This document shows, one piece after another, positions 3,672 through 25,994 of a DNA stretch of 25,994 nt. Origin of the DNA: a virus; IMG/VR virus record IMGVR_UViG_3300025592_000061, positions 1 through 25,994 of that record. One strand, written 5' to 3'. Position numbers and translations under genes: made by a program. A model generated the notes under the pieces. That model saw nothing but the letters and a program-made list of their open reading frames with translations. It made no database searches and had not been told where the DNA came from. Positions within the stretch are counted from its first letter, which is position 1. Each line of letters begins with the position of its first letter.

Positions 3672-4155
3672 TAATAATCGCTCGACCAGTTTTAGTTGTT
3701 TTGTCTGTAATTTGATAAGAATGAGAATACTCTTCCTCAAAATTAATTTTAACCTCTGTGTGGCCAGGATCGTCATAAAAAACTTCTTTGAGTTTAGGAG
3801 TTGGAAACGTAAAAACAATATTTTCACATATCCTTATTGCCTCATTTACAAATATTTTTTTCTTATCTGGATCAATATGTTCTATAACTTCACTACACCA
3901 TCCCCATTCCCAATGATTATCTTCAAAATGAGAACCTTTTGTTAAATCCATTACATGATCTACTTTTGGAGGCGCACCACGAATATCTAACGCTCGATAC
4001 TCTCCCCCAATACCAAGTCTCCCTTTCAGAACACCCTTATATGGACAATTTACACCAGAACCAATATCCAATATAGATCTTCTTCCTCTTGGTGGAAGAA
4101 ATAATAAAAAATATCGTATAACATTTTCTATATTTTTGTGTTCAGTTACATTCAT
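3589..4155 (-). CDS. Class I SAM-dependent methyltransferase
   Basis: ILDIGSG motif I, LDIR after strand 2, CSEVIEHI, VFTFP. ATGA overlap with the gp43 C-terminal gene. Confidence 0.8.
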   Translation of the reverse strand: MNVTEHKNIENVIRYFLLFLPPRGRRSILDIGSGVNCPYKGVLKGRLGIGGEYRALDIRGAPPKVDHVMDLTKGSHFEDNHWEWGWCSEVIEHIDPDKKKIFVNEAIRICENIVFTFPTPKLKEVFYDDPGHTEVKINFEEEYSHSYQITDKTTKTGRAIIIMNKLFDGNVVVRPAYNDGSDLNIHWR

Positions 4156-5522
4156 CCGAAAAAATCTTCAAGTGTTGATATGTATTCAGTCTGCCAACCT
4201 ATAGCAGACAACACTGTCGACATAGGATCGATGAACGATTTTTGAAACATTTTATCATAGTCGATATATTGTTCCAACTCTAACTCAGGTGGTAACCTAT
4301 TCATTATTGCAATAACTTCTCCACCAACCGTATTTGGTTTTTTGAGATATGCAAACTTTATTTTTTCACCATCTTGTATTAATGGATAATCATTTGTCAG
4401 TTTCTTGTCTTTGAGTAGTTTGTTGTAAAGTAACGCCCCCTTCACATGAACAGGAGTGCCTTTAATATACAATTGAGATGCATCGTGATATTTTGTTATC
4501 CCACGAACCGAGCGAGGAAAAAATATATCCTCTGCTTTTAATGCCCGAAACTCTTCCCTAAACTCATCAATATAATTTATCACCTCTTCTTCTGTGCCAT
4601 TCATGATGATATTAAAAATGCCTTTCATTTTTTCTTTGCACGCCGCAGGAGTAGAGGATCGAACTGATTCGATTCCCATAACCTTGAGTTGTGGGGTTTC
4701 ATATCGAACACCCTCTGCATCATATACATTCATGATATAACGTTTTTTTGCAGTCCATAGGGCCTTGTCTGCAATGTTTTCACGTTTCATGACCATCTTT
4801 TGATCGTATGCATTTACATAATCAGCAAGTTTCTGATAAGAAGCATCTATGATTTTTTCCATTTGTTCAGAACAAACCTTATCTAAAAAATCAACTACTT
4901 TATTTTTATCATCAATCGTATCTCCATAGACTTTTTTTACCAAATCATCCATGCAAATATAAACTGAATCTGTATCAACTGCCACGACATAATCTTTTTC
5001 TTTTTCTGGTTTAAGTACTTCGTTCAAATATCGATTGATTTCTTTTTCAATCCATTTAATTGAAAGTTGTCCAGATGTTGTAACGGCTTCGGCAATTCGT
5101 TGGTCAAAATATCTAAAGTGTTCGTTCCCCATTGCACCAAAAGCGGAGTTGAGCGTAGTCTTTAGATTGTTCTGCATATTATGATACTTAGAAATCAGTT
5201 TATACAATTCTACTCTCTTGTCTCCATCCTTTTCCTTCTGCAACTTTTTCTTGGTCGCAATCATCTTTTTCTTATACTTTACCCGATCATTATAAATGTC
5301 TTGCATCATCTCTGGAAGAAAACCTTGTTTATCACAACTAAATATTGCTCCATTTGGGGACATCGTGCAATTCAGTCGTTTCAGTGAAGAAAGGTCAATC
5401 TCTTTATTGACTAACTGAACAGCAGACAAAGTTTGTTTCTTCTCAAGAAGATAAACCCAATCTGCTAGTTCTTGTTTTATGTCTTCCCTTGACAGATCTT
5501 TTATATTTCTAAACTTGTTCAT
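4152..5522 (-). CDS. 43: DNA polymerase gp43, C-terminal part (fingers/palm/thumb)
   Basis: SPNGA..GFLP, motif B KTTLNSAFG, motif C VDTDSVY, KKRY, KVMGIESVRSSTP, HVKGALLYN and C-terminal clamp-binding-like LEDFFG. Confidence 0.93.
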   Translation of the reverse strand: MNKFRNIKDLSREDIKQELADWVYLLEKKQTLSAVQLVNKEIDLSSLKRLNCTMSPNGAIFSCDKQGFLPEMMQDIYNDRVKYKKKMIATKKKLQKEKDGDKRVELYKLISKYHNMQNNLKTTLNSAFGAMGNEHFRYFDQRIAEAVTTSGQLSIKWIEKEINRYLNEVLKPEKEKDYVVAVDTDSVYICMDDLVKKVYGDTIDDKNKVVDFLDKVCSEQMEKIIDASYQKLADYVNAYDQKMVMKRENIADKALWTAKKRYIMNVYDAEGVRYETPQLKVMGIESVRSSTPAACKEKMKGIFNIIMNGTEEEVINYIDEFREEFRALKAEDIFFPRSVRGITKYHDASQLYIKGTPVHVKGALLYNKLLKDKKLTNDYPLIQDGEKIKFAYLKKPNTVGGEVIAIMNRLPPELELEQYIDYDKMFQKSFIDPMSTVLSAIGWQTEYISTLEDFFG

Positions 5523-6097
5523 ATAATCTTATCTCGTTTAGAACGATTTTCCACCATTGTCAAATATTGTAAATTGTCTGGATGATGTAAACCACCCTTT
5601 GATATTGGTATAATATGGTCTATCTCATATCCATCTGGACATTTGAGATACAATTGCTCTATCACATTTTCCTCTTCTGTTGTCAATTCACATTGTGCAT
5701 CTTTCATCCAAGCTCTTCTTTTAGCGGATCTCATTGTTCTCATTTTTGTTCGATGTTTTTTACCTAAATCTCGGGCTTTTGCTGAACAACTATGACAACA
5801 ATATTTTATTTCCCATTTACCATGAGACCTAAATGGAACAACTATAAAATCACCGCCACATTCTAAACATTGCTTGGTCACCTTTCTTTCTTTGTTTTTA
5901 CATTCCGCTTCGAATGATTTTTTTATTCCAAAATTTTGTAATTTCTTTTTTATTGTCACATCTGCGACACCAAACATATCTGCTATTTCGTATCTTCTCA
6001 TATTCTGATTGACATATAATTCCAATAATTTCTCTTTTGATATGTGTACATATTTTGTATTGTTGAATGGATTTGGTATGTATTTGTTTGCTGACAT
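5519..6097 (-). mobile_element. Free-standing HNH homing endonuclease gene inserted in gene 43
   Basis: N-terminal HTH-like RRYEIADMFGVADVTIKKKL, Cys cluster CLEC...CCHSC, C-terminal EIDHIIPISKGGLHHPDNLQYLT..EN..K HNH motif. Lies between the two polymerase halves. Confidence 0.88.
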
Positions 6098-6101
6098 ATT
6101 A

Positions 6102-6156
6102 CCCCTTTTAATAGTTGTATCCTCATATAGTTATTTATAAAAACAACGAAGTGGGG
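6102..6156 (-). promoter_or_regulatory. Late promoter TATAAATA (6139..6132) inside a putative RBS-sequestering hairpin upstream of the HNH gene
   Basis: On the minus strand CCCC (6156-6153) pairs with GGGG (6105-6102, the SD) and GUUGU (6147-6143) pairs with ACAAC (6118-6114). The late box lies between the arms. Confidence 0.55.
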
Positions 6157-6166
6157 ATATAACATA

Positions 6167-7444
6167 TTACAAGGCACTTTCCAGTTCTCTCATTCTATTA
6201 TAGATTTCACTATCGCCGATTAGGTTTTCGGGGGAAATCGTATATTCCATTATCAAATGAGGATATAGAGAGTTCAAATCGAAATTCACTACCCATTCGT
6301 GGGCTCCGAGAATAGGTTCTTTCACATACGCACCTTCAAACTGTGTGGATTTGCTCGAATGTTTCTTTGGTGGAATAACAATGTTTTTCCTGAGAAGATT
6401 GTTGAAAATTAATGTATCCCACATCCGAACTTGGCCGAATGTGTTACCATAATTCACCTTGCAGAGATATGCAAGTGCAACTAACATTTCAAGCAATTTC
6501 AATTTGCTCTCTAACTCTTCGACCAGTTCCACATCTTTAATATTGTATGTGAGGAACTTCTGATAATCGTTTTTATAAAGAAGATGGAGAGAACCCTGTT
6601 CAGAATAATCAAGTTTACGTTCTCCCAATTCCACAAATGCAATGTGATCGAGTCGATATGACTCTTGATTAGTATAAGTAAATTTACGATACATCGATAA
6701 ATAATCAAGAGTTTCTACTCCCGCTATTTGGTAGGACTGAAGTTCCCGACCACCCATCCCAAAGATCATACATTCTCTAACCTTTTTCCAAGGCGAAAGT
6801 AAACGGTAAGGATTGTTCTTGTCCTTAAACAATCTTTTTGCACGATTGACAAGATACGGAATATCGAATGTTTCTATGTTCCACCCTGTAACGATATCTG
6901 GCGACTCTCTATCCCATATTTCGAAGAACTTCCGTAGAAGGGCCTCCTCACTATCAAAACGAAAATAGAAAACATTTTCTCTATCATGAACGAATTCTCC
7001 TCTACCGAAAACATAACACTTCTCATCCACTTTAATTGTGATAGCAGTTACTTCTTCGTTTGCAGTTTCGATATTTGGAAATCCATGTTCTGATCCAGTT
7101 TCTATATCAAGATATGCAATACGAATTAGTGAAAAATCATAATCAATATGTTCTTCTGGAAAGTATTCTGCAATAAAAGAAAACTCAAACTTATCGTTAC
7201 CGTAAATGTCGAAGTTGTCGATCCCCCTATACTTGCGAATAAAGTCTCCACACTCTTTCATGTTGCCTGGTCGGATTTCTCCAACTGGTTTATCTTCAAG
7301 AGTCCGAAATTTAGTTTTTTCTTTGGTAGGAACATAGAGTGTGGGTTTATACTCTACACGATCTCTAAATCTTTCACCATCGTCGGAAATACCACGGAAT
7401 AAAATGTTATTCCCTAGTCGATGCACATTTGTATAAAAACTCAT
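6167..7444 (-). CDS. 43: DNA polymerase gp43, N-terminal part (N-domain, 3'-5' exonuclease, motif A)
   Basis: ExoI YLDIETGS, ExoII GWNIETFDIPYLVNR, ExoIII YNIKDV, motif A FDLNSLYPHLIM. Ends 17 residues after ISPENL. Confidence 0.93.
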   Translation of the reverse strand: MSFYTNVHRLGNNILFRGISDDGERFRDRVEYKPTLYVPTKEKTKFRTLEDKPVGEIRPGNMKECGDFIRKYRGIDNFDIYGNDKFEFSFIAEYFPEEHIDYDFSLIRIAYLDIETGSEHGFPNIETANEEVTAITIKVDEKCYVFGRGEFVHDRENVFYFRFDSEEALLRKFFEIWDRESPDIVTGWNIETFDIPYLVNRAKRLFKDKNNPYRLLSPWKKVRECMIFGMGGRELQSYQIAGVETLDYLSMYRKFTYTNQESYRLDHIAFVELGERKLDYSEQGSLHLLYKNDYQKFLTYNIKDVELVEELESKLKLLEMLVALAYLCKVNYGNTFGQVRMWDTLIFNNLLRKNIVIPPKKHSSKSTQFEGAYVKEPILGAHEWVVNFDLNSLYPHLIMEYTISPENLIGDSEIYNRMRELESAL

Positions 7445-9119: not shown

Positions 9120-10479
9120 TATTAACATCATTAATAGAATCAAATTTACTTGTATACTTTCTATCATAATCAAGGACTTTAAATTTTACTTCTATTCTTG
9201 CCCCATACTTTTCTTCAATCGCTTCTGTATAAAAAAGGATAGATTTTTCTAACTCTACTTGTACTTTACTCCATCCTTTCTTTGATGTCCTATCTGGATG
9301 CTCAATCAAGGTTTCAAATGTCATATCTTCTTCAGGCTTTTCGAGTACAAGAAAATCCCAAAGATTTTGTTTTATCAACCTTTCTTGATCGCTTTTAAAA
9401 GATAAAACCTTATAATTATCTGTTGTATTTTGACTTATGTAATCATTCTTCTTTTGAATCAATCTATCTTCTTCACTCCAACCATTTTTTATTCTCCCCT
9501 TTCCTATTGATTTTTCTTCATCATTAATCTGTGTAGCCTTTTTTAATATTGCCCTGACCGTGTGCCCATGAAATTTACCCAAAGCTTTAAAATGAAAAAA
9601 GTTAGCATCAGAATTTATTTCAATTTTATCTTCTTTTAATCTTGATATTGCGAGTTTAACATAATGGTCATGTCCAGTTGGAGTAGAAAGTACTGTTTCT
9701 TCTGGATTTAAACCTCCACTAAGTTCTTCAATTTGAAGTTCTGTAAAAGGTTTCCCTTTCATTGTCCACAATTTTTTATCAATTAACATTAATTTCATTG
9801 AAGCATCACTCAAATTATTTTTATATTTTTTTGTTAATGCTAACGCACCCAATATATGAGAATGACCTATTCTTTTATGTTTCTTTTTACCATTATAATC
9901 TTTAAGAGTTGGAACGGGCAAAACTTTTTTTAGTTCTTCATCACCAAATTCATCAATTTTCTTAGCAATCTTTCTTTTTTGGCCAGGAACAAATCCTCCA
10001 GGCCTTGGTTGATAATAATCTAAAAATGCTATATACTCCGCATTTGAATCTATAATTGTAATACCATCTACATTTTCTCCTTTACCAACTCTATCAATTT
10101 TATTCAATAATTCTAATACAGCATCATCTTTTTTATTCACTTTTGAACCTCCATTTGTTTCATTAAAATATTCTAAATTTTCTTTTGCATTTACCGCAAG
10201 TAAATGTCTATTTTCAGCACGCCAAATGTCATCTTTGCACTTTGTTAAAAACATTATTATTGTTATTGTTACCTTATTATTATAAAAATCTCGTTCATAT
10301 TCTTCTAGATGAGTTACTACACTACCATAATACTCATCACGAATTGCAAGTTCTCCTTCTTTTCCACCACCATACTTATGTCTTAACTTACCACTATGAA
10401 TTTTAACTTCATACACATAACCATAATAATGTTTTGGTTCTTCTATACCATCTTTAAATTTATATTTAACATTATGCAT
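9115..10479 (-). CDS. Large protein with a degenerate N-terminal GIY-YIG-like domain and possibly a ParB-like middle domain; start reassigned to ATG 10479
   Basis: GYVYEVK...KYGGG...EYYGS and AEN..LL...AKEN.EYFNETNGG resemble Seg-like GIY-YIG proteins. The track's TTG start at 10563 would run through the tRNA. Confidence 0.6.
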   Translation of the reverse strand: MHNVKYKFKDGIEEPKHYYGYVYEVKIHSGKLRHKYGGGKEGELAIRDEYYGSVVTHLEEYERDFYNNKVTITIIMFLTKCKDDIWRAENRHLLAVNAKENLEYFNETNGGSKVNKKDDAVLELLNKIDRVGKGENVDGITIIDSNAEYIAFLDYYQPRPGGFVPGQKRKIAKKIDEFGDEELKKVLPVPTLKDYNGKKKHKRIGHSHILGALALTKKYKNNLSDASMKLMLIDKKLWTMKGKPFTELQIEELSGGLNPEETVLSTPTGHDHYVKLAISRLKEDKIEINSDANFFHFKALGKFHGHTVRAILKKATQINDEEKSIGKGRIKNGWSEEDRLIQKKNDYISQNTTDNYKVLSFKSDQERLIKQNLWDFLVLEKPEEDMTFETLIEHPDRTSKKGWSKVQVELEKSILFYTEAIEEKYGARIEVKFKVLDYDRKYTSKFDSINDVNI

Positions 10480-10491
10480 TCTATTCTCTGT

Positions 10492-10561
10492 TGGAGCGAG
10501 CAGTTGGCTTCGCACCAACCTCTTCAGAATGGAATTCCAAAGCGTTCTAATAACTACTCGC
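10492..10561 (-). tRNA. Non-canonical tRNA-Gly(UCC), 70 nt, with encoded CCA
   Basis: GCGAGUA/UGCUCGC acceptor stem, discriminator U, CCA. Anticodon stem UUGGA/UCUGA with loop AU-UCC-AU (anticodon 10533-10531). T-stem GUUGG/CCAAC with loop UGCGAAG. Shortened D-arm. Confidence 0.85.
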
Positions 10562-16203: not shown

Positions 16204-16875
16204 CTATTCCTCAAAAGTTGAGTTCTGCTCCAAAGCAATAAAGTAAAGAAGAGTGTCAGTTGTCCTTTGAAATCTTGAAATTCTTTTAGAGGACAACGCC
16301 ACATCATACTCCCCTTCCATCAATTTATTCAAGTTTTCCGTCTTGAAAATCATACGGAACGTTTTATCCGTAGGGCCGACACCAGTTGAAAAATTATCTG
16401 ATGATACATTACCTGTATCAGACACCAACAATCTTATTTCTGTTCCGTCACCTTCGACAATCACTTCTGGAAGACCCAACGTATTTGCTGCGTTGATGGT
16501 TTTTTTGAAGACATCTTGTGTCAGTTGAAATTCAACTTCTGGTTCTGGAAATGATATGTCTTTCTCGGGCGGTGTTTGAAACATAGAACTACTCCCACAA
16601 TAACGATATGTTGCTTCGTGTTTAGAATCGGATATCATAACACCATTATCAGTAAAATCCAATTCTGGAGCATTAAACAATGATAACGTACCAAGAAACC
16701 GACTCAGTTCATATATTGGAAAGGTTTTTGGCAACTCCTCATCGATTTCTACTGATGCCAGAATAGTATTCAATGGAGAAACAGTCCTAAGAATGTTTCC
16801 TTCTCGAAATTCTATACTCTGATTGATGTTTGCATAATTTTTCAAAAGATTGATTGTTCTTTCACTTACTTTCAT
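16204..16875 (-). CDS. 45: Sliding clamp gp45
   Basis: LLKNYANINQSI, FPIYELSRFLG, ENL..M.G.Y.V and YFIALE; synteny. Confidence 0.93.
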   Translation of the reverse strand: MKVSERTINLLKNYANINQSIEFREGNILRTVSPLNTILASVEIDEELPKTFPIYELSRFLGTLSLFNAPELDFTDNGVMISDSKHEATYRYCGSSSMFQTPPEKDISFPEPEVEFQLTQDVFKKTINAANTLGLPEVIVEGDGTEIRLLVSDTGNVSSDNFSTGVGPTDKTFRMIFKTENLNKLMEGEYDVALSSKRISRFQRTTDTLLYFIALEQNSTFEE

Positions 16876-21738: not shown

Positions 21739-24102
21739 TCACGCAACTTTTTTAATAAATGCGTTAAGAAGGATGCGATTTTGCAACTTTCCTTTGGTGC
21801 TTTTCTTTAACGCTCTTCGAATTACTGCTTTAGAAGATCCCACCTGAATCGAATCCATATGATCAACTTCGTCTATTTCAAGACCTTTGGTGTTGATAAT
21901 ATATAGTTCATCATAAACCGTTCCTGTATCAATCAAGAACTTTTCCTTGCGAAACTTTGACTTATCTTCTTCCGTAGGGTATCGTGACATTGCATAACCC
22001 AAATTACCAGCATTTCTTCTTCCAGAACCAGAAGTCAGAAAAAATCCAAGAAGATTGATTCCCAATGACCGTTTTAGTGCAAGTAAAAGAAGTGAAGTTA
22101 TTCTATTATTTTGTTTTTTAACTTCCTCTGGAAAAACTCTCATACGAGTTACTGGATCATCAATATGGGTCGATTTTTTATCAAATCTCTGAACCACATT
22201 GCTAGAGTCCAAATATTGTCTATTCCCGTTACTCTGACCATCAGTCAAAAATACTGCATTGACAATCTGAGATCTCGTTTTCATTCTAAATTCTTCAATT
22301 ACAGACTTTGCAACAACAATTGTATCATTCAATGGAGTTCCACCAAGCGTATAATTACTAGGCGTTCCATAATAACGATATTCACTACTGTAATAATTAC
22401 GATAACTATTGTCAAATCCTTCTGCAATCATAAGAAAATTTTGATATGCATTGTTCAATTCCCGATTTCTCATTCGTGAAGAAAAAATATTCATCAATCG
22501 AAGATTTTTTGAAACTACAATATTGTTTTTTTTGTAATCTGCAATTTTCTTCCCCAAGGCCGTTTCATCATAAAGACGATCCCTATGTTGTTCACGAAGA
22601 TAATCATTTTCCGCATCTTTCCAATCTCGATAGTGGTCAGAAAAAGCATAAACTTCAAAAGGAATCTGAACTTTCGAGCAGAACATGGTCAAGTTAATCA
22701 ACTGTTCGATAGTTTCTTTCATGTAACTGTACATGGAACCAGACCAATCGATGAACATAACCATACCGTGATTCTTTCCTTCTGGCAAATTTGTGATTTG
22801 CTGAAACAGATTTTCACTATACTTATATGCATGAATCTTGTTCATGTCAAGAGTTCCCTTTTTTGAATTATATGCACGACGATGAATATCTGCCGCTTTC
22901 TTCATCTCAAACTCTTTGACCATATAATTGATCATTTTACCATTGGTTGACTTAAACGTTTTCAGAAGTTCGATTCCATGTGTTTTCGCACCATCTTGAG
23001 ATGCATAAAACCCGTTACACTCTTCGAGAACTTTCTTGTAATCGATTACAAGTGCATCTGTATTGATTTTCGGAAAAGTTAAATAAAGAGGAAGTTCTGT
23101 ATATTCCCCCATATCCGTCAATTCTTCTTCTCTTTTACGATATTCTTCATCAGTAATGGAACGTGGGCCCCCCACAGACATATCTTCTCTATCACCAAAA
23201 GCATCTCCGACACCACCTTCAAAACCATTAGAAGATGCTCCCTTGGAAGGTTCTTTTTCATTTTCTTCATCAGAAGATTCTCCTTCTTTTGATTTTCCTG
23301 AACCATCTTCGTTCGAATCGGCAGAATCTTCACCACCACAATTTGAAGGCCCATCTTCTTCAGAATCATCTTCATCTTCTTCACAATCATCAGCTATACG
23401 ATCTAATTCATCACAAGCACCTGAAAGATCATTTTCCCAATTATCTTCTGAATCTTCAGATTCACCAAATTCATCTTCGGAATCTTCACCAAATTCACCA
23501 TAACTGTTATCGGTTTCCGATTCGTTTTCTTTGCACCAATCATAAAGTTCATCACAAACCTCAACGACTTCTTCCCAAGATTCGGTTCTTTCGACACGAT
23601 TGACCCAAACTTTTTCCTCATCGGAAAATTCGATTCCGTAAGCAGTTCCGGCTTTGGTATATAAATTGATACGATCAATCAGACCAATATCGTTGGGGTC
23701 AACCCCCATCTTTCTCAATCCGAAAAAATCTTCATTCATTAAACTCTTATACCCCTCGATCATCGATTTCCGAGCGCCTTCAAACTTTCTCTTAATTTTC
23801 TTTTCGATTCTCGCATCTTCTATTACGTTCAGAAAAGATTTATAACCCTTTCCTTTTTTACTTATAGAAGAATGCCATCCATCTTCAGGAGTCCAAAGTG
23901 CGTGTCCAACTTCGTGAGCACAAAAAAGGTCATAGACCTCAGAACCAGGCTTCCATTTGAGGATAGGTAGGTATAACACACGATTTTTCACATCGAATGC
24001 CGCAGTAGGGATTTTCTTGTGTTCGACCGTGATATTCTCTGCTGCCATCAATTTGGCAAGGAGAGATTTCTGTTCTATTAGGGAGGTCGCTTTGAATTTC
24101 AT
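21739..24102 (-). CDS. CobT-like VWA protein with an N-terminal HExxH metallopeptidase-like domain and an acidic linker
   Basis: HEVGHA, NVIEDARIE, a long D/E/S-rich linker, MIDAS DWSGSM, GGTPL and FLTDGQ. Adjacent to the MoxR-type ATPase. Confidence 0.85.
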   Translation of the reverse strand: MKFKATSLIEQKSLLAKLMAAENITVEHKKIPTAAFDVKNRVLYLPILKWKPGSEVYDLFCAHEVGHALWTPEDGWHSSISKKGKGYKSFLNVIEDARIEKKIKRKFEGARKSMIEGYKSLMNEDFFGLRKMGVDPNDIGLIDRINLYTKAGTAYGIEFSDEEKVWVNRVERTESWEEVVEVCDELYDWCKENESETDNSYGEFGEDSEDEFGESEDSEDNWENDLSGACDELDRIADDCEEDEDDSEEDGPSNCGGEDSADSNEDGSGKSKEGESSDEENEKEPSKGASSNGFEGGVGDAFGDREDMSVGGPRSITDEEYRKREEELTDMGEYTELPLYLTFPKINTDALVIDYKKVLEECNGFYASQDGAKTHGIELLKTFKSTNGKMINYMVKEFEMKKAADIHRRAYNSKKGTLDMNKIHAYKYSENLFQQITNLPEGKNHGMVMFIDWSGSMYSYMKETIEQLINLTMFCSKVQIPFEVYAFSDHYRDWKDAENDYLREQHRDRLYDETALGKKIADYKKNNIVVSKNLRLMNIFSSRMRNRELNNAYQNFLMIAEGFDNSYRNYYSSEYRYYGTPSNYTLGGTPLNDTIVVAKSVIEEFRMKTRSQIVNAVFLTDGQSNGNRQYLDSSNVVQRFDKKSTHIDDPVTRMRVFPEEVKKQNNRITSLLLLALKRSLGINLLGFFLTSGSGRRNAGNLGYAMSRYPTEEDKSKFRKEKFLIDTGTVYDELYIINTKGLEIDEVDHMDSIQVGSSKAVIRRALKKSTKGKLQNRILLNAFIKKVA

Positions 24103-24361: not shown

Positions 24362-24391
24362 ATTATAACACAGAAATGTACTGAATGTCAA
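24362..24391 (-). promoter_or_regulatory. Sigma70-like promoter
   Basis: TTGACA (24391-24386), N18, TATAAT (24367-24362). Confidence 0.65.
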
Positions 24392-25230
24392 GTTTTTTTA
24401 TCAAAACCCATCATGTCTCTTGTGAGTTTGGTCTTTGGAACATTGGCCGCAATCCAACCCAAAAGTTGTCGTTTAATATCTATTTCTGGCCCGACAGATT
24501 TTCCCTCTTCCTTGAAGGTTAGGTAGGTGAAATCTTTGACAACGATATTTCCCTGAGATGTTTTCATTGGTTTCTTTGTGTCGGGATCGACATAAGGAAT
24601 GGTGTTATCTCTATTATTGAGAACAACCCTAACTCCGCCATTCAATCCTTTTGGGAGTTTTCCTTTGATAATATCGTACATATTCGTTGCGGCTCCCTCG
24701 TGAGAAGATAACATGATGTCTTCCGGTACAACTCTTTTACGATTTCTGTTGTTTACAATCGCAATTGCATAATTTGTCAAAACCCATGTGAGATGAATAT
24801 TTTTAGCATCATATCCTGCCTTTGTCAATTTAGGAACAATGTTTCCTATATCACTTGCATCTTTCATCGTAATATCGAACATGATATTGGGGAGTCTATC
24901 TGAATTGACATCTCTAAGTAGAAGATCAAGAGACTTGTCTTTTATTCCCATGTCCTTCACAAAACGATGTATTTTGGCAACATCTTTAGGATTTTTCAGA
25001 TTCAATCCTTTAATCTCTGGATATTTTCCTTGTGTGTCTGCCAATTTCATTAATGCGGTCTTCCATTCATCAACATCACGAATTTTGAACAATTCACCTT
25101 GCATAAAGTTTTTTATTGCAAAACCTTTTCCACTGCCAGCACCGCCTGCGAGGAAAACTATTTGACCATATCTCTTTCCCTGACCATATAGTATGAGTTT
25201 TTCTTCGAGATATTGTTGGAAATTAAGCAT
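24388..25230 (-). CDS. P-loop kinase/NTPase (zeta-toxin/AAA_33-like)
   Basis: VFLAGGAGSGKGF, RDVD, MFDIT, RNRKR..PE..M..SH. Confidence 0.72.
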   Translation of the reverse strand: MLNFQQYLEEKLILYGQGKRYGQIVFLAGGAGSGKGFAIKNFMQGELFKIRDVDEWKTALMKLADTQGKYPEIKGLNLKNPKDVAKIHRFVKDMGIKDKSLDLLLRDVNSDRLPNIMFDITMKDASDIGNIVPKLTKAGYDAKNIHLTWVLTNYAIAIVNNRNRKRVVPEDIMLSSHEGAATNMYDIIKGKLPKGLNGGVRVVLNNRDNTIPYVDPDTKKPMKTSQGNIVVKDFTYLTFKEEGKSVGPEIDIKRQLLGWIAANVPKTKLTRDMMGFDKKT

Positions 25231-25317: not shown

Positions 25318-25325
25318 TATTTATA
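25318..25325 (-). promoter_or_regulatory. Late promoter TATAAATA upstream of the P-loop gene
   Basis: Plus strand tatttata at 25318-25325, 5 nt downstream of the tRNA CCA end. Confidence 0.65.
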
Positions 25326-25330
25326 AGACG

Positions 25331-25405
25331 TGGTACTCCGTATGGGTTCTGCCCCCATCTGACCGCCTTGAAAGGGCGGTGACCACACTAGCCGTCCCAC
25401 GGAGC
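25331..25405 (-). tRNA. Non-canonical tRNA-Glu(UUC), 75 nt, with encoded CCA
   Basis: GCUCCGU GG GAC GGCUAGUGUG GUC A CCGCC CU-UUC-AA GGCGG UCAG AUGGG GGCAGAA CCCAU ACGGAGU A CCA. All four stems pair; anticodon at 25372-25370. Confidence 0.88.
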
Positions 25406-25410
25406 ATTAT

Positions 25411-25728
25411 TTAGTTTTTGTAATCGAACCATCTGATAGGTTTGTTGTATCGTGTCAATAGTTCGTCTAAATCCAAAATCAATTCATCAGACTTGAAGTC
25501 CCAAAGCCAATCGCTTAATGCGTTCCAATCTTCTGTTTGCATCACAGGAAGATGGATTTCCCAACCACGAGGATGAAAGTTTTCGTTTTCGGAATCACCA
25601 CCTCGAATATCAATTCTACCACCCGACCATTCAGCACCATGCTTATCTGTCCATTCTCGGCCCTTTTCTAATAGACACCATTCGGCATCTATTGGGCCCA
25701 TCCAGTTCGAACAATAATTATATTTCAT
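25411..25728 (-). CDS. Hypothetical Trp-rich protein
   Basis: 105-aa frame in operon orientation. Confidence 0.65.
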   Translation of the reverse strand: MKYNYCSNWMGPIDAEWCLLEKGREWTDKHGAEWSGGRIDIRGGDSENENFHPRGWEIHLPVMQTEDWNALSDWLWDFKSDELILDLDELLTRYNKPIRWFDYKN

Positions 25729-25738
25729 GAATTATATT

Positions 25739-25994
25739 TCATGGTACTTTTGGCCCTGTTATACCACCGTGTTTTTCACACACTTCATCCACCACTTCGA
25801 TAGGAACCCATCCATAAACTGTTCCTGTCAATTTTCCACTGTTTTCAGCATAACTTTCTATCAACGGTTCTGCTGAACTCGGAAAACCAATTTCAACGGT
25901 GTATGGCCCACTGTAATGGTAATGACTATTCTGCACGCTCATAGAAAATCCATCTTTGCATTCTACGACAGGTAGAATGTCTGGCCGAGTCGTG
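25739..25994 (-). CDS. Hypothetical phage protein, 5'-truncated by the window edge
   Basis: The frame stays open upstream of the track's Met (…TTRPDILPVVECKDGFSMSVQ…) to the end of the window. Confidence 0.65.
   Translation of the reverse strand, partial: TTRPDILPVVECKDGFSMSVQNSHYHYSGPYTVEIGFPSSAEPLIESYAENSGKLTGTVYGWVPIEVVDEVCEKHGGITGPKVP

What the first reader, a model, noticed from the sequence alone, without database searches (positions are those of the whole stretch)
25331..25405. Second elbow-degenerate tRNA: tRNA-Glu(UUC) with intact stems but rewritten tertiary positions
Seen: all four stems pair, CCA is encoded and the anticodon loop CU-UUC-AA is normal. Yet position 8 is G, the D-loop (GCUAGUGU) lacks A14, the GG dinucleotide and A21, and the T-loop is GGCAGAA (no U54, U55 or A58). 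The D-stem has A11-U24, the reverse of the U11-A24 identity pair of E. coli tRNA-Glu, with pairing preserved. Changes concentrated in loops while stems stay paired argue against simple pseudogene decay. Inference: a non-ribosomal Glu donor (Glu-tRNA-dependent chemistry is known for GluTR and LanB dehydratases), a decoy for tRNA-targeting defence nucleases, or a synthetase sponge. No partner enzyme is evident in the window.
Basis: partly seen in the sequence, partly recalled or inferred. Interest (0 to 1): 0.75.

Follow-up and report, generated by a model that had tools for sequence, protein, structure and literature searches.

The report
Phage glutamate tRNA with rewired elbow
This is a real, conserved glutamate tRNA gene of a marine T4-like phage whose "universal" corner bases have all been swapped for a matching alternative set, a design that recurs in many phage and mobile tRNA arrays, that standard tRNA finders miss, and that I could not find described in print.

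Summary
The 75-nt cloverleaf on the minus strand (25405 to 25331) exists as described. ARAGORN (default) and Rfam's tRNA model miss it. It is not degenerate. Four near-identical contigs carry it with three substitutions, all in the anticodon stem and all keeping pairing. A structure-aware scan found 42 unique Glu(UUC) relatives in viral contigs and in tRNA arrays of bacterial genomes. All share a T-loop GGCAGNA and a D-loop with AG in place of GG. Their stems co-vary heavily (98.5% paired; covariation 0.865 against 0.22 in shuffles). A model built without the window's lineage scores the element at 69 bits. The lost tertiary bases change in matched sets: G18/U55 to A18/G55, U54/A58 to G54/G58, and here also U8/A14 to G8/G14 and G15/C48 to C15/G48. 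In a close relative it is the only Glu tRNA found beside 21 ordinary tRNAs in the 18 kb held. GAA is the window's second commonest codon. Best reading: a working tRNA-Glu with an alternative elbow (confidence 0.7). A Glu-specific non-ribosomal donor or decoy is not supported, because the same design occurs in many isoacceptors and has no constant partner gene. This scan noted the same class on other DNA at least 96 times. No RNA or charging data exist.

The parts
25331..25405 (-). tRNA-Glu(UUC) gene with alternative ('rewired') elbow, 75 nt including the encoded CCA
   Evidence: Cloverleaf is the MFE fold. ARAGORN -mt calls it Glu(ttc). Class model R1 gives 69.3 bits. Conserved with compensatory changes in L067-L070.
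25385..25392 (-). D-loop GCUAGUGU: G14, C15, then A18-G19 in place of G18-G19
   Evidence: Sequence. The AG(C/U) motif is invariant in all 51 class members. G8/G14 co-occur 13 times against 1 and 2 singles, Fisher p about 1e-18.
25370..25372 (-). Anticodon UUC in a standard 7-nt loop C32-U33-UUC-A37-A38
   Evidence: Sequence. GAA is the second commonest codon in the window's ORFs (511 of 7760).
25347..25353 (-). T-loop GGCAGAA (G54 G55 C56 A57 G58 A59 A60) closed by G52-C62 and G53-C61
   Evidence: Sequence. GGCAG-N-A and the two closing G-C pairs are invariant in 31 aligned relatives.
25359..25362 (-). 4-nt variable loop UCAG (no residue 47; A46; G48 facing C15)
   Evidence: Sequence. Absence of residue 47 and A46 belong to the E. 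coli GluRS identity set (PMC9976931).
25411..25728 (-). Upstream ORF (105 aa, phrog_18736). Its stop codon lies 5 nt before G1 of the tRNA.
   Evidence: The homologue in L068 ends 1 nt before the tRNA.
25318..25325 (-). TATAAATA (T4 late-promoter consensus) 6 nt after the CCA, ahead of the kinase-like gene. Homology with L068 ends exactly at the CCA.
   Evidence: Sequence. The same motif precedes the kinase gene in close relatives. The homology break is shown.
24388..25230 (-). Downstream gene: Zeta-toxin-like P-loop kinase (phrog_5268). It is conserved with or without tRNAs upstream, so it is not a dedicated partner.

Best explanation
The element is the phage's own elongator tRNA-Glu(UUC). 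It lies at the distal end of the phage tRNA region. It is probably transcribed together with the small upstream ORFs, cut out by RNase P at G1 (5 nt after the upstream stop codon, U at -1), and ends in its encoded CCA. It would then be charged by the host GluRS through U34-U35-C36-A37, the 4-nt variable loop and the D-helix, and would read GAA (and GAG), the second most used codon of this AT-rich phage. Its L-shape is probably held by an alternative, internally matched set of tertiary contacts: A18.G55 for G18.Psi55, G54.G58 for T54.A58, G19:C56 kept, and in this lineage also G8.G14 for U8.A14 and C15:G48 for G15:C48. Shown here: the conservation, the stem covariation, the matched swaps, the class membership, the array context and the codon demand. 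Inferred: transcription, processing, charging, decoding and the 3D contacts. Why the alternative elbow exists is open. It removes the U54-U55 site used by TrmA and TruB and by a published T-loop-cutting defence nuclease. However, in this phage lineage only 2 of 22 tRNAs carry a rewired elbow, so a neutral or lineage-inherited alternative design is equally possible.
For: (1) Selection on structure. L067-L070 differ from the window at 3 of 75 positions, all in the anticodon stem and all preserving pairing (28:42 C:G to U:A; 30:40 C:G to U:G), with flanks about 95% identical. (2) Family. 23 of 115 pattern hits in viral contigs have 0 stem mismatches and the rest have 5 or more. About 28 further perfect or near-perfect cloverleaves lie in bacterial genome tRNA arrays. 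This gives 42 unique Glu members. (3) Covariation on 31 members without the window's lineage: 98.5% of cells paired, 18 of 21 pairs changed on both sides, score 0.865 against 0.22 (0 of 500 shuffles) and 0.06-0.12 when slid. The D-stem, which was never used for selection, is 94% paired, with 11:24 as A-U 14 and U-A 14. (4) Model R1 scores the window element at 69.3 bits. (5) Matched tertiary swaps in an unbiased set of 247 perfect cloverleaves. U55 goes with D-loop GG in 95 and without in 9; G55 goes with AG or no GG in 132 and with GG in 9. Position 54/58 is U.A 155, G.G 59, A.U 14, C.C 11. G8/G14 gives Fisher p about 1e-18. (6) Role in the set. L079 has 21 canonical tRNAs for 17 amino acids and no other Glu gene in the 18 kb held. 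In 24 of 25 viral loci no canonical Glu(UUC) accompanies the variant. All L079 tRNAs encode CCA, as this one does. (7) Class members lie a median of 10-11 nt from canonical tRNAs on the same strand. (8) GAA makes up 511 of 7760 codons. (9) The anticodon loop, the absence of residue 47 and A46 fit the GluRS identity set in PMC9976931.
Against: The window element departs from the E. coli GluRS set at 1:72 (G.U), 2:71 (C-G), 11:24 (A-U, reversed) and 13:22 (G.G), and the host GluRS is unknown. A canonical Glu(UUC) co-exists with the variant in L082 and L227, so the variant does not always fill a gap. The stem perfection of the family is partly a result of my filter, although the bimodal split and the unselected D-stem argue against an artefact. 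Staphylococcal cell-wall tRNA-Gly species also lack GG and T-Psi, so such changes can mark non-ribosomal tRNAs (from my own knowledge and scan notes; I did not check this here).
Confidence: 0.7

Rival explanations
1. It is a tRNA mimic that does not decode. It could be a decoy or sponge for a tRNA-targeting nuclease or for GluRS, or a dedicated glutamyl donor for a non-ribosomal enzyme.
For: The elbow surface read by the ribosome, RNase P and modification enzymes is changed at 54, 55, 58, 18, 8 and 14. A canonical Glu(UUC) co-exists with a variant in L082 and L227. The sister element at 10492-10561 follows a Mom-family gene. The L-array paper raises sponge roles for array tRNAs (PMC8421152).
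Against: The same T-loop and D-loop design occurs in at least 15 isoacceptors, so it is not Glu-specific chemistry. No partner gene is constant: synteny breaks on both sides of the element. No GluTR, LanB-like, Fem-like or RNA-repair family appears in the ORFs scanned by Pfam or PHROGs (the ORF at 16204-16875 and ORFs below 50 aa were not scanned). In L079 it is the only Glu gene beside 21 ordinary tRNAs. The anticodon loop is fully standard.
Confidence: 0.15
2. It is mainly an RNA-processing or recombination signal. On this view a tRNA-shaped RNase P site sets the 3' end of the upstream mRNA, or it is a module boundary at which phage genomes recombine, and decoding is secondary or lost.
For: It starts 5 nt (1 nt in L068) after the upstream stop codon. 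Homology between the window and L068 ends exactly at the CCA. In kinase-bearing relatives various tRNAs abut the same TATAAATA motif.
Against: A processing signal does not need an invariant anticodon loop, a Glu-type variable loop, or a co-varying anticodon stem. Ordinary tRNAs in phage clusters show the same tight packing, so this is a by-product of being a tRNA gene.
Confidence: 0.05
3. It is a decaying tRNA-Glu pseudogene.
For: Standard detectors reject it, and near-universal bases are missing.
Against: There are compensatory changes in close relatives. The element shows 3 differences in 75 nt where the flanks are about 95% identical. Loop motifs are invariant across 51 diverse members with heavy stem covariation. 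GC is 63% in a 35% GC contig.
Confidence: 0.03

Closest known systems
Canonical bacterial and phage elongator tRNA-Glu(UUC) (Rfam RF00005), for example the housekeeping gene in locus L235 and the clustered tRNAs of T4-like phages
   Same: A 7/4/5/5 cloverleaf, a standard anticodon loop with UUC and A37, a 4-nt variable loop without residue 47, a short D-stem with a non-Watson-Crick 13:22, an encoded CCA, and a position in a phage tRNA cluster.
   Different: The T-loop is GGCAGAA, not UUCGAAU. The D-loop has AG, not GG. It has G8/G14, C15/G48 and G1.U72. RF00005 gives no hit at E<=10 and ARAGORN default gives no call.
Long, horizontally transferred tRNA gene arrays (L-arrays; Santamaria-Gomez et al. 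2021, PMC8421152)
   Same: Class members in bacterial genomes sit in dense accessory arrays, while the housekeeping tRNA-Glu is canonical elsewhere in the same chromosome.
   Different: My term search of that paper found no mention of a T-loop, of G18 or of the elbow. The window's copy is phage-borne.
Tymovirus tRNA-like structure (Rfam RF00233; TYMV TLS)
   Same: It is the only Rfam family with any match (20.9 bits, E 2.1). Its consensus shares a CAGUG-type D-loop and a GCA-containing T-loop, that is A18-G19 with G55-C56. [quoted passage not shown]
   Different: The score is far below gathering (40 bits). The TLS has a pseudoknotted acceptor arm, keeps U54/A58, is a 3' UTR of a plant RNA virus, and accepts valine.
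Non-proteinogenic tRNA-Gly of staphylococci (cell-wall glycine donors)
   Same: They are natural bacterial tRNAs that lack the D-loop GG and the T-Psi sequence (UGC-type T-loop). This is from my own knowledge and scan notes and was not checked in a paper here.
   Different: Those are a single isoacceptor tied to the Fem enzymes. Here the design spans many isoacceptors, has no constant partner gene, and carries the extra G54/G58 swap.

Membership tests
Elongator tRNA (Rfam RF00005 / ARAGORN bacterial model) | Cloverleaf with a 7-bp acceptor, 3-4-bp D, 5-bp anticodon and 5-bp T stem, and a 7-nt anticodon loop with U33 and a purine at 37 | tested here: met
   All stems are paired except G13.G22. 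The loop is C-U-UUC-A-A.
Elongator tRNA (Rfam RF00005 / ARAGORN bacterial model) | Near-universal tertiary bases U8, A14, G18-G19, U54-U55-C56, A58 | tested here: not met
   Only G19 and C56 are kept. The others are G8, G14, A18, G54, G55 and G58.
Elongator tRNA (Rfam RF00005 / ARAGORN bacterial model) | Score at or above the detector's threshold (RF00005 gathering score 29 bits; ARAGORN default) | tested here: not met
   There is no RF00005 hit at E<=10 and no ARAGORN default call. Canonical neighbours in L079 score 31-73 bits.
tRNA-Glu by the E. coli GluRS identity set (PMC9976931) | Strong determinants U34, U35, C36, A37 | tested here: met
   The anticodon loop is CUUUCAA.
tRNA-Glu by the E. 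coli GluRS identity set (PMC9976931) | Absence of residue 47 and the base triple U13-G22:A46 | tested here: inconclusive
   The variable loop UCAG has 4 nt and an A at position 46, but 13:22 is G.G, not U.G. Most class members have U13.G22.
tRNA-Glu by the E. coli GluRS identity set (PMC9976931) | U11-A24, and the weak determinants G1-C72 and U2-A71 | tested here: not met
   The element has A11-U24, G1.U72 and C2-G71. Across the class 11:24 is A-U 14 and U-A 14, and G1.U72 is the majority first pair. The host GluRS is unknown.
Rewired-elbow tRNAs of phage and mobile tRNA arrays (A18/G55, G54/G58 subclass; defined here and in this scan's notes) | T-loop G54-G55-C56-A57-G58-N-A60 closed by G52-C62 and G53-C61 | tested here: met
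   GGCAGAA between AUGGG and CCCAU. The motif is invariant in alignment A2.
Rewired-elbow tRNAs of phage and mobile tRNA arrays (A18/G55, G54/G58 subclass; defined here and in this scan's notes) | D-loop with AG(C/U) and no GG dinucleotide | tested here: met
   GCUAGUGU. All 51 class members have AGC or AGU.
Rewired-elbow tRNAs of phage and mobile tRNA arrays (A18/G55, G54/G58 subclass; defined here and in this scan's notes) | Significant score with a covariance model built from other members | tested here: met
   R1, built without the window's lineage, gives 69.3 bits and E 3e-19.
Rewired-elbow tRNAs of phage and mobile tRNA arrays (A18/G55, G54/G58 subclass; defined here and in this scan's notes) | Location in or at a multi-tRNA array | tested here: met
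   In L079 it follows 21 tRNAs and three small ORFs. The window ends about 0.6 kb upstream of the element, before the cluster. The class-wide median spacer to a canonical tRNA is 10-11 nt.
tRNA pseudogene | Relaxed constraint, meaning stem-breaking or accelerated substitutions among relatives | tested here: not met
   There are 3 differences in 75 nt and all preserve pairing, one pair by a compensatory double change. Flanks are about 95% identical.
Dedicated non-ribosomal aminoacyl donor (Fem, LanB or GluTR-type systems) | A conserved neighbouring or co-occurring enzyme that uses the aminoacyl-tRNA | tested here: not met
   Neighbours differ between relatives on both sides. No such family was found in the window ORFs scanned by Pfam or PHROGs.
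Tymovirus-type tRNA-like structure (RF00233) | Gathering score of 40 bits and a pseudoknotted acceptor arm | tested here: not met
   The score is 20.9 bits with E 2.1. The acceptor stem here is an ordinary 7-bp helix.

The most novel reading that the evidence does not exclude
The matched swap of the tRNA corner (A18.G55, G54.G58, sometimes G8.G14) is a second, fully functional way to build the tRNA elbow, and mobile elements keep it because it hides their tRNAs from host factors that read the T-loop UUC. Such factors include T-loop-cutting defence nucleases of the Schlafen/Cash type, for which single U54 or U55 changes abolish cleavage (PMC13462974), and the TrmA and TruB modification enzymes. 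On this reading it would be a counter-defence written into tRNA architecture, and a natural tRNA scaffold with an altered corner.
Probability: 0.25. Interest if true: 0.85.

Novelty: new variant of a known kind. Interest (0 to 1): 0.68.

Why it matters
T54-Psi55-C56 and G18-G19 are taught as near-universal features of tRNA, and gene finders are built around them. Here the corner is replaced by a fixed alternative set, with each lost base changing together with its partner, in a family spread over many phages and bacterial accessory arrays. If these tRNAs work, there are three consequences. First, phage tRNA repertoires are systematically under-counted: this phage lineage would appear to lack tRNA-Glu. 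Second, the rules for the tRNA elbow, including U.A to G.G at two reverse-Hoogsteen sites, become directly testable. Third, there is a concrete hypothesis linking tRNA architecture to escape from T-loop-directed host enzymes and nucleases.

Tried and rejected
- nhmmer with the 75 nt against 66 kinase-bearing relatives gave one weak partial hit (L030, E 0.16) and no homologue. Those phages carry other tRNAs or an ORF in the slot.
- The pattern GGGGGCAGAACCC(N11)CCA in viral contigs gave seven chance hits in GC-rich coding DNA.
- A whole-record search of the IMG/VR relatives was not possible because the records are not held.
- blastn of two class members against 50,697 GenBank phages gave no hit for the L102 member, and only a 39-nt partial match to an annotated tRNA-Asp of three Streptomyces phage records for the window element. 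BLAST suits this class poorly because the stems vary.
- Model R1 over Pelagibacter phage HTVC008M, Methylophilales phage Melnitz and Synechococcus phage S-CAM8 gave no member.
The pattern search over 401 alphaproteobacterial genomes gave hit counts no higher than the reversed-pattern control. Nothing from the unpublished genome G245 is used.
- The ARAGORN -ps90 'tRNA-Ala' at 10157-10231 lies inside an ORF, folds with z -0.14, and is a false positive.
- The Rfam sR2 C/D-box match at 23358-23418 (28.7 bits against a gathering score of 42) lies inside the CobT-like ORF and is taken as chance.
- I considered a D-loop/T-loop Watson-Crick register (G18:C56, Y19:G55) as an alternative to A18.G55 with G19:C56. 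Sequence alone cannot separate the two. I use the A18/G19 numbering because it matches the short alpha region of tRNA-Glu D-loops.

Full report
**The observation.** On the minus strand, 25405 to 25331 reads as a 75-nt cloverleaf.
- The acceptor stem has 7 pairs, beginning with G1.U72.
- The D-stem is G10-C25, A11-U24 and C12-G23, with G13 opposite G22.
- The D-loop is GCUAGUGU.
- The anticodon stem is CCGCC/GGCGG and the loop is CUUUCAA.
- The variable loop is UCAG.
- The T-stem is AUGGG/CCCAU and the T-loop is GGCAGAA.
- The discriminator is A and CCA is encoded.

The cloverleaf is the minimum-free-energy fold (-32.7 kcal/mol, z -2.3), and the element is 63% GC in a 35% GC contig. ARAGORN's default mode finds no tRNA in the window. 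Rfam finds nothing at gathering score. At E<=10 the tRNA model still does not report it, and the only overlapping match is the tymovirus tRNA-like element at 20.9 bits. ARAGORN's mitochondrial mode calls exactly these coordinates as Glu(ttc).

**Context.** The window is the whole 25,994-bp contig held, and all its genes lie on the minus strand. It is a marine T4-like myovirus replication module:
- gp41-type helicase, UvsX, ClpP, a family B polymerase split by an HNH gene, Hsp20 and a Mom-family protein;
- a PD-(D/E)XK nuclease, a dUTPase/dCTP-deaminase-like gene, RegA, clamp-loader genes and CobS/CobT-like proteins.

UvsX is 61-63% identical to those of Methylophilales phage Melnitz and Pelagibacter phage HTVC008M.

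The element starts 5 nt after the stop codon of a 105-aa ORF. Six nt after its CCA comes TATAAATA, the T4 late-promoter consensus, followed by a Zeta-toxin-like P-loop kinase gene.

**Close relatives.** Sixty-six viral contigs carry the kinase gene, and none carries this element or the upstream ORFs. The slot before the conserved TATAAATA motif does hold ordinary tRNA genes in some of them: Thr in L021 and Thr-Ala-Asn-Trp in L029. In L028 and L030 it holds a Trp(CCA) cloverleaf with T-loop GGCAGCA, at the position of the ordinary tRNA-Trp of L029.

Searching with the upstream ORF found four contigs (L067-L070, with longer flanks as L078-L081) that carry the same element. They differ from the window at three positions, all in the anticodon stem: 28:42 changes from C:G to U:A, and 30:40 from C:G to U:G. 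The flanks are about 95% identical, and the homology ends exactly at the CCA.

In L079 the element is preceded by three small ORFs and 21 tRNA genes that ARAGORN and Rfam accept (31-73 bits). These cover 17 amino acids and all encode CCA. No other Glu gene lies in the 18 kb held. Twenty of the 21 have UUC T-loops and GG D-loops. Phe(GAA) has AGCGUAA. The window simply ends before this cluster.

**A family, not decay.** I scanned viral contigs with a pattern asking only for the Glu anticodon loop, GGCAGNA and CCA at tRNA spacing. Twenty-three had no mismatch in the acceptor, anticodon and T stems, and the next best had five.

The same loci hold cloverleaves with this T-loop and anticodons for His, Asp, Gly, Val, Ser (with a long variable arm) and Trp.

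The variants lie inside large tRNA clusters of phages with 29-60% GC. ARAGORN's default mode never reports them. A canonical Glu(UUC) accompanies the variant in only one of 25 viral loci, whereas canonical Glu(CUC) does so in six.

A tighter pattern run over one genome per prokaryote species gave 38 hits. About 28 are perfect or near-perfect cloverleaves, mostly in Verrucomicrobiota assemblies and some alphaproteobacterial ones, and always within dense tRNA arrays. One complete 6.5-Mb chromosome also has an ordinary tRNA-Glu(UUC) elsewhere, so the array copy is accessory.

**Covariation and membership.** I aligned 31 Glu members, leaving out the window's lineage. The results:
- 98.5% of cells are paired, against 66% in shuffles and 33-41% when partners are slid.
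- 18 of 21 pairs change on both sides.
- The covariation score is 0.865 against 0.22 (0 of 500 shuffles).
- The D-stem, which my filter never used, is 94% paired, with 11:24 split A-U 14 and U-A 14.
- The invariant positions are A-G in the D-loop, C32 to A37, G52-G53, GGCAG, A60, C61-C62 and CCA. The pattern itself fixed C32-A37, GGCAG, A60 and CCA.

A covariance model built from this alignment scores the window element at 69.3 bits (E about 3e-19). It scores the other tRNA-like element of the window (10492-10561) at only 19.2 bits.

**The elbow is rewired.** I made an unbiased set of 247 perfect cloverleaves with encoded NCCA from all loci held, with no loop requirement.

| Comparison | Counts |
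|---|---|
| U55 with D-loop GG / without | 95 / 9 |
| G55 with AG or no GG / with GG | 132 / 9 |
| Position 54/58 | U.A 155, G.G 59, A.U 14, C.C 11; mixed forms rare |
| G8 with G14 / G8 alone / G14 alone | 13 / 1 / 2 (Fisher p about 1e-18) |

Several of the nine 'G55 with GG' cases are stem-edge artefacts, the window's own element among them. All 13 G8/G14 members also have G54/G58.

In standard tRNA, 54.58 is a reverse-Hoogsteen U-A pair, G19 pairs with C56, G18 contacts Psi55, and 15 pairs with 48 (PMC4810234). That 8.14 is also a reverse-Hoogsteen pair is from my own knowledge.

The window element has A18/G55, G19/C56, G54/G58, G8/G14 and C15/G48. Each 'lost' base therefore has a changed partner. 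I infer that the L-shape is kept. No structure was determined.

**Function.** GAA is the second commonest codon in the window's ORFs (511 of 7760, against 116 GAG). Class members lie a median of 10-11 nt from ordinary tRNAs on the same strand, which suggests common precursors, and U precedes G1 in 25 of 51.

Against the E. coli GluRS identity set (PMC9976931), the strong anticodon-loop determinants and the missing residue 47 are present. The pairs 1:72, 2:71, 11:24 and 13:22 differ. The host enzyme is unknown.

Taken together, the simplest reading is a working tRNA-Glu(UUC). I could get no expression data.

**Why this elbow.** A type III CRISPR-associated Schlafen nuclease cleaves tRNAs at the T-loop UUC, and single U54 or U55 changes abolish cleavage (PMC13462974). 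G54-G55 lacks that site, and also lacks the substrates of TrmA and TruB (the latter point from my own knowledge). This makes escape from T-loop readers a testable idea. However, only 2 of 22 tRNAs in this phage lineage are rewired, which fits poorly with escape from a broad nuclease. A neutral alternative design carried by horizontally exchanged tRNA genes is as likely.

**Comparison and novelty.** Six literature searches found no description of this T-loop and D-loop design in phage or array tRNAs. In the L-array paper, the nearest described context, my term search found no mention of the T-loop, of G18 or of the elbow. I cannot exclude a description in papers outside the held library.

This scan has noted the same class on other DNA: 96 notes mention the A18/G55 swap and 32 the G54/G58 swap. 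My data agree with those notes, and I derived the class independently before reading them. One claim in them, that SAR11 uses G54/G58 in housekeeping tRNAs, I could not confirm.

**Verdict.** 'Degenerate' should read 'rewired'. The non-ribosomal or decoy readings are unsupported but not excluded. The element is a member of a widespread, apparently undescribed structural variant of tRNA.

Noticed in passing
window 10492-10561 (-): This is a second tRNA-shaped RNA with encoded CCA, anticodon-like UCC, a reduced D-arm and T-loop UGCGAAG. It starts 7 nt after the stop of a Mom-family gene (PF25680, 10569-11402). It scores only 19.2 bits with the Glu-class model, so it is a different design. Other notes of this scan link such Gly-like RNAs to Mom enzymes.
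   Followed up: partly
L028 244-315 and L030 793-864: This Trp(CCA) cloverleaf has T-loop GGCAGCA and a compact D hairpin. It sits at the position of the ordinary tRNA-Trp of L029 (2868-2941), directly before the conserved TATAAATA motif and kinase gene.
   Followed up: partly
L079 1315-1390: tRNA-Phe(GAA) of the close relative has T-loop AGCGUAA (A54/U58 with G55) and a D-loop with AG. It is a second rewired type in an otherwise canonical 21-gene set, and ARAGORN still detects it.
   Followed up: no
window 25728-25755 compared with L068 2495-2510: The window has a 14-bp direct duplication (about AAATATAATTCATG) at the junction of the two small ORFs upstream of the tRNA. L068 has a single copy, with the ORFs overlapping.
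   Followed up: no
L201, L204, L205, L220, L221, L226, L229, L234 (Verrucomicrobiota assemblies): These loci share syntenic accessory tRNA arrays of the form Gly-Met-Phe/Asn-[rewired Glu]-Arg(GCG)-His-Gln-Leu-Leu. The Arg tRNAs have the unusual anticodon GCG, and all seven unique copies have UGC-type T-loops.
   Followed up: partly
L033 about 1050-1250: Upstream of the kinase gene lies a GC-rich stretch ending in a normal tRNA 3' half (T-arm GGTTCGATTCC plus acceptor). No complete cloverleaf was called. It may be a tRNA with an insertion or a fragment.
   Followed up: no
window 4152-7444 (-): The family B DNA polymerase is encoded in two ORFs separated by an HNH endonuclease ORF (5519-6097).
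   Followed up: no
class-wide (alignment A2): G1.U72 is the commonest first acceptor pair of the rewired Glu tRNAs (20 of 31 aligned, 25 of 42 unique). E. coli tRNA-Glu uses G1-C72 as a weak identity element.
   Followed up: no
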